A stretch of DNA of 64,000 nucleotides from Eledone cirrhosa (Eukaryota): NCBI GenBank assembly GCA_964016885.1, contig OZ024742.1, positions 269,080,001-269,144,000 of the forward strand, in the 5' to 3' direction. Below the pieces are notes generated by a model that worked only from the letters and a program-made list of their open reading frames with translations, did no database searches and had not been told where the DNA came from. A program made the translations under genes and the position numbers. Positions 52,630-52,824 of the stretch are shown here, piece by piece. Each line of letters starts with the position of its first letter. Within the stretch, counting starts at the first letter, position 1.

Positions 52630-52824
52630 AACGAAGGAAATGTGGTAAGAAACCAGGTGGACCATAACGCACCAAAGTACTCAATACTTAGGGTAGTAGA
52701 GTGGGTAATAGGAACGAGTAGGACCCCGACGGCTGAGCTCAAGCCGTTTCGACGGCTAATTCTGGACCAGAATTAGCCGTCGAAACGGCTTGAGCTCAGC
52801 CCTCGGGGTCCTACTCGTTCCTAT
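52630..52824. repeat. Fold-back micro-element in (TA)n (family copy 3)
   Basis: 58-bp arms at 52708-52824 around a single A at 52766. Confidence 0.9.

What the first reader, a model, noticed from the sequence alone, without database searches (positions are those of the whole stretch)
52630..52824. Snap-back micro-element whose palindrome axis is a hammerhead stem-II loop
Seen: 58-bp arms (52708-52824) around a single A. Each arm reads ccagaattagccgtc-GAAAC-GGCTTGAGCTCAGCC-GTC, which is the 3' strand of stem II, the GAAA box, a long stem III and a GUC site (the right arm has CTC). The CUGANGA half is absent and replaced by the mirror copy. Inference: cDNA copied through stem II folded back on itself and primed second-strand synthesis, so the ribozyme hairpin set the inversion point of the insertion. 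This could explain mechanistically the inverted pseudo-LTRs typical of PLEs.
Basis: partly seen in the sequence, partly recalled or inferred. Interest (0 to 1): 0.75.

Follow-up and report, generated by a model that had tools for sequence, protein, structure and literature searches.

The report
Penelope stubs joined at capped start
This 193-base DNA hairpin is one of over ten thousand stub insertions of a Penelope-like jumping gene, and its mirror point likely marks the capped start of the element's RNA, where two separate DNA copies ran off and were joined, rather than a fold on the ribozyme hairpin.

Summary
The palindrome is real: 58-bp arms, one mismatch, central A. It is one of 13,322 short palindromes of a (TA)n-targeting, Hydra-type Penelope-like element; a copy with an open RT+GIY-YIG frame and 3.5-kb tandem arrays were found. 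The hammerhead is real too, but its core is the U3-A8 variant, not CUGANGA. Axes do cluster inside loop II: 68 of 100 tail-anchored copies end 33-48 nt before the predicted cut. Snap-back on stem II is not supported: 0 of 87 palindromes keep the native loop, 1 of 87 junctions could prime as a hairpin, and either arm can be longer. Best reading: two target-primed cDNAs, started 20 and 100 nt past the cut, ran off an RNA 5' end near -41 and were joined head to head. That end is likely the capped transcription start (initiator-like motif; extra G in 17 of 33 informative ends versus 23 of 91 elsewhere). Long copies cross the same site without stopping (0 of 26), pointing to a second, likely circular, template. 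No RNA data confirm the start. The scan reached this reading before on other DNA of this genome and in one other genome.

The parts
52630..52822 (-). Whole stub insertion: tail-bearing arm (sense on minus) plus inverted tail-less arm
   Evidence: 40 best genomic matches are 97-100% identical over the full length
52630..52707 (-). 78-bp tail (+21 to +98 from the predicted cut); in the parent it continues into the frame upstream of the first ATG; outer end = predicted RT start site 1 (about +100, AT microhomology)
52708..52767 (-). Tail arm proper, from +20 back to -40: stem I 3' strand 52723-52727, GUC 52728-52730, stem III 52729-52747, GAAA box 52747-52750, stem II 3' strand 52751-52758, remnant of loop II
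52766..52767 (.). Head-to-head junction: tail arm ends at -40, other arm at -38, 1-nt overlap; 1-3 nt short of the modal end (-41, initiator-like A)
52767..52824 (+). Inverted arm, -38 to +20: stem II 3' strand 52774-52781, GAAA 52782-52785, stem III to 52803, site 52802-52804 (private G>C), stem I 3' strand 52805-52809; outer end = predicted RT start site 2 (+18 to +20, TAT microhomology)
52560..52629 (.). (TA)n target tract, left
   Evidence: 95 of 100 tail ends abut at least 3 TA units
52823..52851 (.). (TA)n target tract, right, then (TG)n
45574..45752 (-). Older copy of the same family with a different junction
12627..12715 (-). Shorter copy of the same family, both pieces ending downstream of or at the cut; no stem II/III

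Best explanation
The hairpin is a stub insertion of a Hydra-type Penelope-like retrotransposon in a TA repeat, likely made from two separately primed cDNAs that ran off the same RNA 5' end, likely the capped transcription start inside hammerhead loop II, and were then joined head to head. Shown: family, parent ORF, complete hammerhead in long copies, two fixed outer ends (+20, +100), clustering of inner ends at -35 to -45 with mode -41. Inferred steps: (1) the GIY-YIG domain nicks both strands of (TA)n; (2) RT starts internally at +100 on one strand and +20 on the other; (3) on linear mRNA beginning near -41 both cDNAs run off after 60-140 nt, sometimes copying the cap as an extra G; (4) host end joining (blunt, 1-nt overlap or short insert) fuses them; (5) long copies and tandem arrays come from a second template without that end, likely a ribozyme-cut circle. 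Starting inside loop II would leave the mRNA's 5' hammerhead without its core half, which is why the stub lacks it. Odds by step: two cDNAs 0.8; an RNA end rather than a stall 0.75; that end is a cap 0.65.
For: Hot spot: longer arm ends at -48..-33 in 68 of the first 100 tail hits, 1 at -99..-49, 10 long; strict re-count of 252 short arms peaks at -41 (49) and -40 (45). Two cDNAs: inverted arm longer in 40, tail arm in 28, equal in 11 of 79; some arms do not overlap at all (e.g. L170, L174); in long copies the two inner ends differ by 36-1,229 nt in 9 of 9 long pairs; 0 of 87 native-loop centres, 1 of 87 primable hairpins, 78 different junction strings. RNA end, not stall: 0 of 26 passages (19 loci) in long copies stop at -48..-33 versus 68 of 79 first passages. 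Cap: first unexplained base beyond -41 is G in 17 of 33 versus 23 of 91 at other ends (p=0.009; G:A 17:3 versus 11:18, p=0.001); A-41 and T-39, T-43 are invariant in 17 long references and match the initiator consensus (recalled); same peak (-41 to -39) in a diverged subfamily. Untemplated G as cap mark: PMC4859970 passages. Dimeric PLE RT that cuts and extends both strands and starts at two internal sites bounding the tail: PMC11167929, parts 1-2 read. Five insertions end at the predicted ribozyme cut (-1..+2) against 0.5 expected.
Against: No start site was measured. Only about half of the informative -41 ends carry G; 13 of 33 carry C (native in some subfamilies) and ends spread from -33 to -47. 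The G test is post hoc, arms of one palindrome are not independent, and blunt joints hide the cap base. The TATA-like box 29 nt upstream is absent in some subfamilies; the initiator consensus is loose. The 3' strand of a predicted apical hairpin in loop II (-45..-37) covers the same interval. Arms share the same subfamily haplotype in 43 of 53 copies (18% expected at random), which fits one RNA but fits snap-back as well. One long copy (L210) has a 24-nt local fold-back. The 100-copy sample comes from the first 17 Mb of one contig; the long-copy sample from one young subfamily. Deletions after insertion may have reshaped junctions.
Confidence: 0.62

Rival explanations
1. Two cDNAs are joined, but they stop in loop II because RT stalls at the apical hairpin of the extended stem II, or because the RNA is cut or protein-bound there, not because the RNA starts there.
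For: Predicted apical stem 3' strand spans -45..-37 and is kept in several subfamilies; ends are spread over about 12 nt.
Against: Long copies cross the site 26 of 26 times without stopping there; RT passes the GC-richer stems II and III; a stall gives no extra G; the diverged subfamily has another loop sequence but the same peak.
Confidence: 0.15
2. One reading: one cDNA folds back on stem II (or on microhomology in loop II) and primes the second arm.
For: Axes lie in loop II; arms usually share a haplotype, 43 of 53; some junction inserts are short re-copies of nearby arm sequence; self-priming proposed in PMC3846280.
Against: 0 of 87 native loops, 1 of 87 primable hairpins; tail-less arm often longer than, or not overlapping, the tail arm; two copies have arms of different subfamily haplotype (L099, L106); long pairs have unrelated inner ends.
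Confidence: 0.08
3. Long inverted insertions collapsed after integration by central deletion to short, stable palindromes.
For: Long palindromes are unstable (established knowledge); junctions show 0-3 nt overlaps.
Against: Gives no reason for both arms to end at -41 with a sharp upstream edge (1 of 100 at -99..-49) or for an extra G; long inverted pairs persist with random inner ends.
Confidence: 0.07
4. The stub is a MITE-like or SINE-like unit that is itself re-mobilised with a fixed palindrome.
For: 22 of the 30 nearest copies share the window's junction string (selected for likeness to it).
Against: 78 different junctions among 87 palindromes; the same junction recurs in both orientations to the tail and in more than one subfamily; no transposase link; parent is an RT element.
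Confidence: 0.06

Closest known systems
Hydra clade of C-terminal EN+ Penelope-like elements (Craig et al. 2021, PMC8557442; passages, section 11 and supplement passages seen), e.g. Hydra-1_Obim
   Same: RT plus C-terminal GIY-YIG; DKT, RW-basic, CxCx5C, CxxC and CxH motifs; (TA)n targets; hammerhead near the 3' end. [quoted passage not shown]
   Different: Different family by eye (3.5-kb unit versus 2,507 bp; other protein and ribozyme sequence); U3-A8 core, long stem III and 37-nt loop II; 78-bp tail versus the usual 30-40 bp; tens of thousands of stubs ending inside loop II.
Canonical PLE insertion unit: inverted 5'-truncated copy, tail at one end, junction palindrome (PMC3846280 passages and Discussion; PMC8557442)
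   Same: Head-to-head arms, optional tail, partial and full tandems.
   Different: Those papers read the junction palindromes as self-priming; here the junction counts favour two cDNAs that end at one RNA position.
Anolis Poseidon in vitro (Frangieh et al. 2024, PMC11167929; parts 1-2 of 4 and passages read)
   Same: Two internal RT start sites bounding the tail; both target strands cut and extended; predicted dimer; 5'-shortened RNA gives shorter products.
   Different: The parts read do not treat inverted insertions, caps or start sites; no reads at the ribozyme cut were found there, whereas five insertions end at the cut here.
L1 twin priming and cap-derived untemplated G (PMC4859970, passages)
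   Same: Priming from both target strands; extra G at full-length 5' ends.
   Different: In L1 the two pieces cover different parts of the RNA (recalled); here both cover the same 5' stretch, giving a near-perfect palindrome.
U3-A8 minimal hammerheads of Schistosoma Cercyon PLEs (Cervera and De la Pena 2014, PMC4209133; parts 1-2 of 4 read)
   Same: Type I, U3-A8 core, unpaired base at the 5' end of stem II, G10.1-C11.1 pair, palindromic loop III.
   Different: Here stem III is 6 bp and the monomer folds as a three-way junction in 3 of 6 MFE folds.

Membership tests
EN+ Penelope-like element | Single ORF with RT and C-terminal GIY-YIG | tested here: met
   L093 786-codon open frame, 718 aa from first ATG; YRDD and IY/YIG motifs; 2,218 full-length homologues. 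Pfam and PDB sequence scans gave no significant hit, so domain names rest on motifs and on visual match to the Craig alignment.
EN+ Penelope-like element | pLTR, tandem and inverted arrangement, tail at one end | tested here: met
Hydra clade | DKT instead of DKG; RWK-like motif | tested here: met
   DKT at 184, RWR at 102-107; 119 and 115 of the 120 listed homologues share them
Hydra clade | CxCx5C linker; CxxC and CxH flanking conserved E and N | tested here: met
   positions 639, 737, 765
Hydra clade | CCHH motif absent | tested here: inconclusive
   Only one Cys lies between the IY and YIG motifs; not aligned to CCHH-bearing references
Hydra clade | (TA)n insertion | tested here: met
   95 of 100 tail ends
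Hydra clade | Placement in an RT phylogeny with named clades | not tested
   No reference sequences were held as files
Type I hammerhead ribozyme (long copies) | Core boxes and stems I-III | tested here: met
   UUGANAA with variable position 7, GAAA, GUC; 91% of cells paired, 3 stem II pairs with two-sided change in 9 related sequences; several copies have off-consensus core bases
Type I hammerhead ribozyme (long copies) | Self-cleavage | not testable with these tools
   Indirect only: five insertions end at the predicted cut
Type I hammerhead ribozyme (window stub) | Complete core | tested here: not met
   5' half absent; no Rfam hammerhead hit in the window
MITE | Fixed structure with terminal inverted repeats and TSD | tested here: not met
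   78 junction strings in 87 palindromes; repeat is subterminal on the tail side; TSD cannot be read in (TA)n
Non-LTR retrozyme | Short tandem units each with a complete hammerhead | tested here: not met
   Stubs are inverted pairs with half ribozymes; the tandems seen are full 3.5-kb coding units (definition from 10.64898/2026.07.22.740005, part 1 read)

The most novel reading that the evidence does not exclude
This PLE starts its mRNA inside its own ribozyme, so the capped 5' copy is a half hammerhead, and the genome holds a two-class record of its replication: linear capped RNA gives strong-stop-like double stubs (most copies), while ribozyme-cut circles give long copies and tandems. Inverted pLTRs and tails of PLEs in general would then come from twin internal priming on one RNA by an RT dimer, and stub ends would map start sites and in vivo ribozyme cuts in any genome.
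Probability: 0.45. Interest if true: 0.75.

Novelty: new member of a known kind. Interest (0 to 1): 0.5.

Why it matters
The object is an ordinary kind of PLE insertion, but its thousands of siblings bear on an open question: how Penelope-like elements make inverted pseudo-LTRs, tails and tandems. The junction counts argue against the self-priming idea in print and give single-base predictions (cap at -41, RT starts at +20 and +100, cut at 0, circle junction at 0) that can be tested by RNA-end mapping and in the existing in vitro PLE system. Searches listed no paper whose title or abstract states this model; subscription papers are not covered, and I did not see supplements other than that of PMC8557442.

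Tried and rejected
CUGANGA upstream of the arm: 35 genomic hits, none forming stem II by eye. Rfam: no hammerhead match in the window; only sub-threshold miRNA hairpin matches. Pfam and PDB sequence scans of the parent protein: nothing significant. RNA evidence: no RNA holder listed; not evidence either way. Contigs of runs X1-X6 (kind not on record; X1-X3 one sample, possibly the source of the assembly) show a roughly 15-fold depth step across -47..-35, loose ends at +20, +100 and before -41, the last with a consensus G next to -41 in X1 and X2 at low overall agreement; the tool warns that depth is no copy number, so this is kept as a consistency check only. A tail-only search for the window's own subfamily returned nothing (very common words are skipped). 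Early end counts had artefacts at -44, -45 and -48 from chance matches between the mirror arm and other subfamilies; one search is the stricter count, and the '+24' outer end is +18 to +20 plus TA flank. A genome-wide listing of both arms with their junctions was not obtained, so arm and junction counts rest on fetched samples. Iterated strong-stop jumping as the source of tandems was considered: long copies would then often end at -41, and 0 of 26 do.

Full report
Coordinates below are relative to the predicted hammerhead cut (last base before it = -1, first after it = +1), in the sense of the parent element.

1. Observation. The insert 52630-52822 sits between (TA)n tracts. Arms 52708-52765 and 52767-52824 are 58 bp with one mismatch around a central A. 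Two more family members lie in the window, at 12627 and 45574. In the 3.0-Gb genome a 24-mer of the arm has 52,348 exact matches, a tail 24-mer 40,140, and 13,322 places have two arms facing each other within 60 nt; reversed controls gave 0.

2. Parent. Arm pairs 2.5-3.3 kb apart flank RT/endonuclease frames. L093 holds a 786-codon open frame that begins in the tail; first ATG at about +190, 718 aa. It has DKT, RWR, CxCx5C, CxxC and CxH motifs, the marks given for the Hydra clade (PMC8557442, section 11), shared by 114-119 of the 120 listed homologues, and it matches the Hydra rows of that paper's supplementary alignment by eye. Pfam and PDB gave no significant hit. Near-identical head-to-tail arrays of 3.53-3.55 kb units exist, closed by one +20 end and one tail end in opposite orientation; the tail can be on either arm.

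3. Ribozyme. Long copies carry a complete type I hammerhead: 5-bp stem I, UUGANAA core with a variable seventh base, one or two unpaired bases, G10.1-C11.1, stem II with a loop of about 37 nt, GAAA, 6-bp stem III with palindromic loop, GUC. Three of six MFE folds give the three-way junction directly; in nine related sequences 91% of cells pair and three stem II pairs change on both sides (relatedness inflates this). U3-A8 cores are described in Schistosoma PLEs (PMC4209133).

4. Where arms end. I took the first 100 of the 40,140 tail hits (first 17 Mb of contig 1; two pairs of rows belong to one insertion each). 79 have an inverted arm. The longer arm ends at -48..-33 in 68, at -99..-49 in 1, beyond -100 in 10, at -32..-8 in 6, at -7..+5 in 9, at +6..+60 in 6. 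A stricter count used 309 unique arms from the window and loci L061-L280 and L311-L320 (L001-L060 dropped because they were selected on the junction; 31 long and 26 mismatched arms set aside): 252 short arms peak at -41 (49) and -40 (45) (this set only sees arms reaching -31). A diverged subfamily with another loop sequence peaks at -41 to -39 (22 of 52 arms; the query required about -36, and long copies are under-called).

5. Snap-back tested. Of 87 oriented palindromes none keeps the native loop at its centre, 1 has an overlap that could prime a hairpin (2 or more nt, loop 3 or more), 29 have overlaps too short or too tight, 23 are blunt and 34 have inserts; 78 junction strings differ. The window's junction (-40/-38, 1-nt overlap) would need a 1-nt loop. 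In the tail-anchored set the tail-less arm is longer in 40 of 79, by 10 nt or more in 23 (a few of these are over-called), and in several it shares nothing with the tail arm; since only one arm has the tail, neither arm can be a copy of the other in those cases unless later deletion removed it. In long copies the two inner ends differ by 36-1,229 nt in 9 of 9 long pairs; one further copy has a 24-nt local fold-back. Against my reading: arms share a haplotype in 43 of 53, as snap-back also predicts; 2 of the 10 discordant copies join different subfamily haplotypes, the rest are mostly single changes in a T run.

6. What sets -41. Among 30 of 40 hits at the tail-to-ORF junction, 26 (19 loci) have more than 1.3 kb of body; none stops at -48..-33 (one at -27), against 68 of 79 first passages; the four short ones, primed further into the ORF, end at -40, -44, -2 and +2. 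Long arms pair with long arms (9 of 9; 4 of 4 rows with a visible partner pass -48). A fixed structural stall would not spare long copies, so two template classes are likely. The base at -41 is an invariant A in a pyrimidine-A-N-T-pyrimidine context that fits the initiator consensus (recalled), 29 nt below a TATA-like box present in some subfamilies only. The first unexplained base beyond -41 is G in 17, C in 13, A in 3 of 33, versus G in 23 of 91 at other ends (p=0.009); some copies carry the G on both arms (L081, L163). Untemplated G marks cap copying in L1 and SVA (PMC4859970 passages). Five insertions end at -1..+2 against 0.5 expected, which fits copying of ribozyme-cut RNA. The D. virilis Penelope promoter and start site also lie in the pLTR (PMC2377424, passages).

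7. Mechanism. Shown: family, parent, ribozyme motif, fixed outer ends, clustered inner ends, junction types. Inferred: both strands of (TA)n are nicked and extended by an RT dimer from two internal start sites, as shown in vitro for Anolis Poseidon (PMC11167929); on the linear capped mRNA both cDNAs run off near -41 and are end-joined; on a circle made by ribozyme cutting (proposed in PMC4209133) RT runs on and gives long copies and tandems. Read-through transcripts of existing tandems could also supply long templates. How the half ribozyme at the 5' end is cut is open; the palindromic loop III would allow the complete 3' copy to act on it as a dimer (inference).

8. Known and new. The insertion layout, clade and ribozyme type are known. 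Self-priming is the explanation in print for junction palindromes (PMC3846280 Discussion). Searches listed no paper whose title or abstract gives the cap run-off model; I saw listings only for papers not named above. I wrote the cap idea in my notebook before opening the scan's notes; these show that other agents reached the same reading on other copies in this genome and on a PLE in another genome. They are unchecked AI notes and add no independent support. Earlier notes call the genome likely octopus; I did not test that.

9. Verdict. Interest 0.5.

Noticed in passing
window 51432-51656 and 52167-52391: 225-bp inverted pair (94%) around a 510-bp spacer with a minimal hammerhead-like motif; related piece in L092; likely ends of another PLE family.
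   Followed up: partly
window 3410-5323 (-), 13064-13435 (-), 41618-42309 (-), 45874-46245, 47310-47612, 57362-57774: Decayed fragments of other Hydra-type RT/EN frames, 23-49% identical to the L093 protein.
   Followed up: partly
window 10915-11060: TA-flanked chimeric insert: a family-like short end joined to rearranged palindromic pieces of another repeat.
   Followed up: no
window 20877-22280, 36846-37604, 38801-39718, 48449-49708, 383-1306: Open frames of other retroelements (LINE-type EN/RT and PLE-type RT by eye).
   Followed up: no
G000 C1:437.2 Mb, C1:91.47 Mb, C2:320.55 Mb (L244-L249): Very young arrays of 3-4 full 3.5-kb units; units of one array differ by 0-1 base and share a private loop variant with the inverted arm.
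   Followed up: partly
window 52775-52790 and all arms: Without the 5' half, the stem II 3' strand is predicted to pair with the stem III 5' strand around the GAAA box, an alternative hairpin that would keep the 5' copy of the ribozyme off.
   Followed up: no
L203, L213, L215, L228: Stubs primed at +160 to +545, further into the ORF than the two usual start sites, that still end at -40/-44 or at the cut.
   Followed up: partly
L023 1332-1448 and 2960-3034, L053 1705-1785, L259 1279-1378, L176 3047-3106, L091 422-483: Short TA-flanked palindromes of other families with the same build; candidates for testing generality.
   Followed up: no
PMC8557442 supplement: Eight Naiad consensuses are flagged 'HHR_half_core'; whether this reflects a start site inside the ribozyme was not checked.
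   Followed up: no
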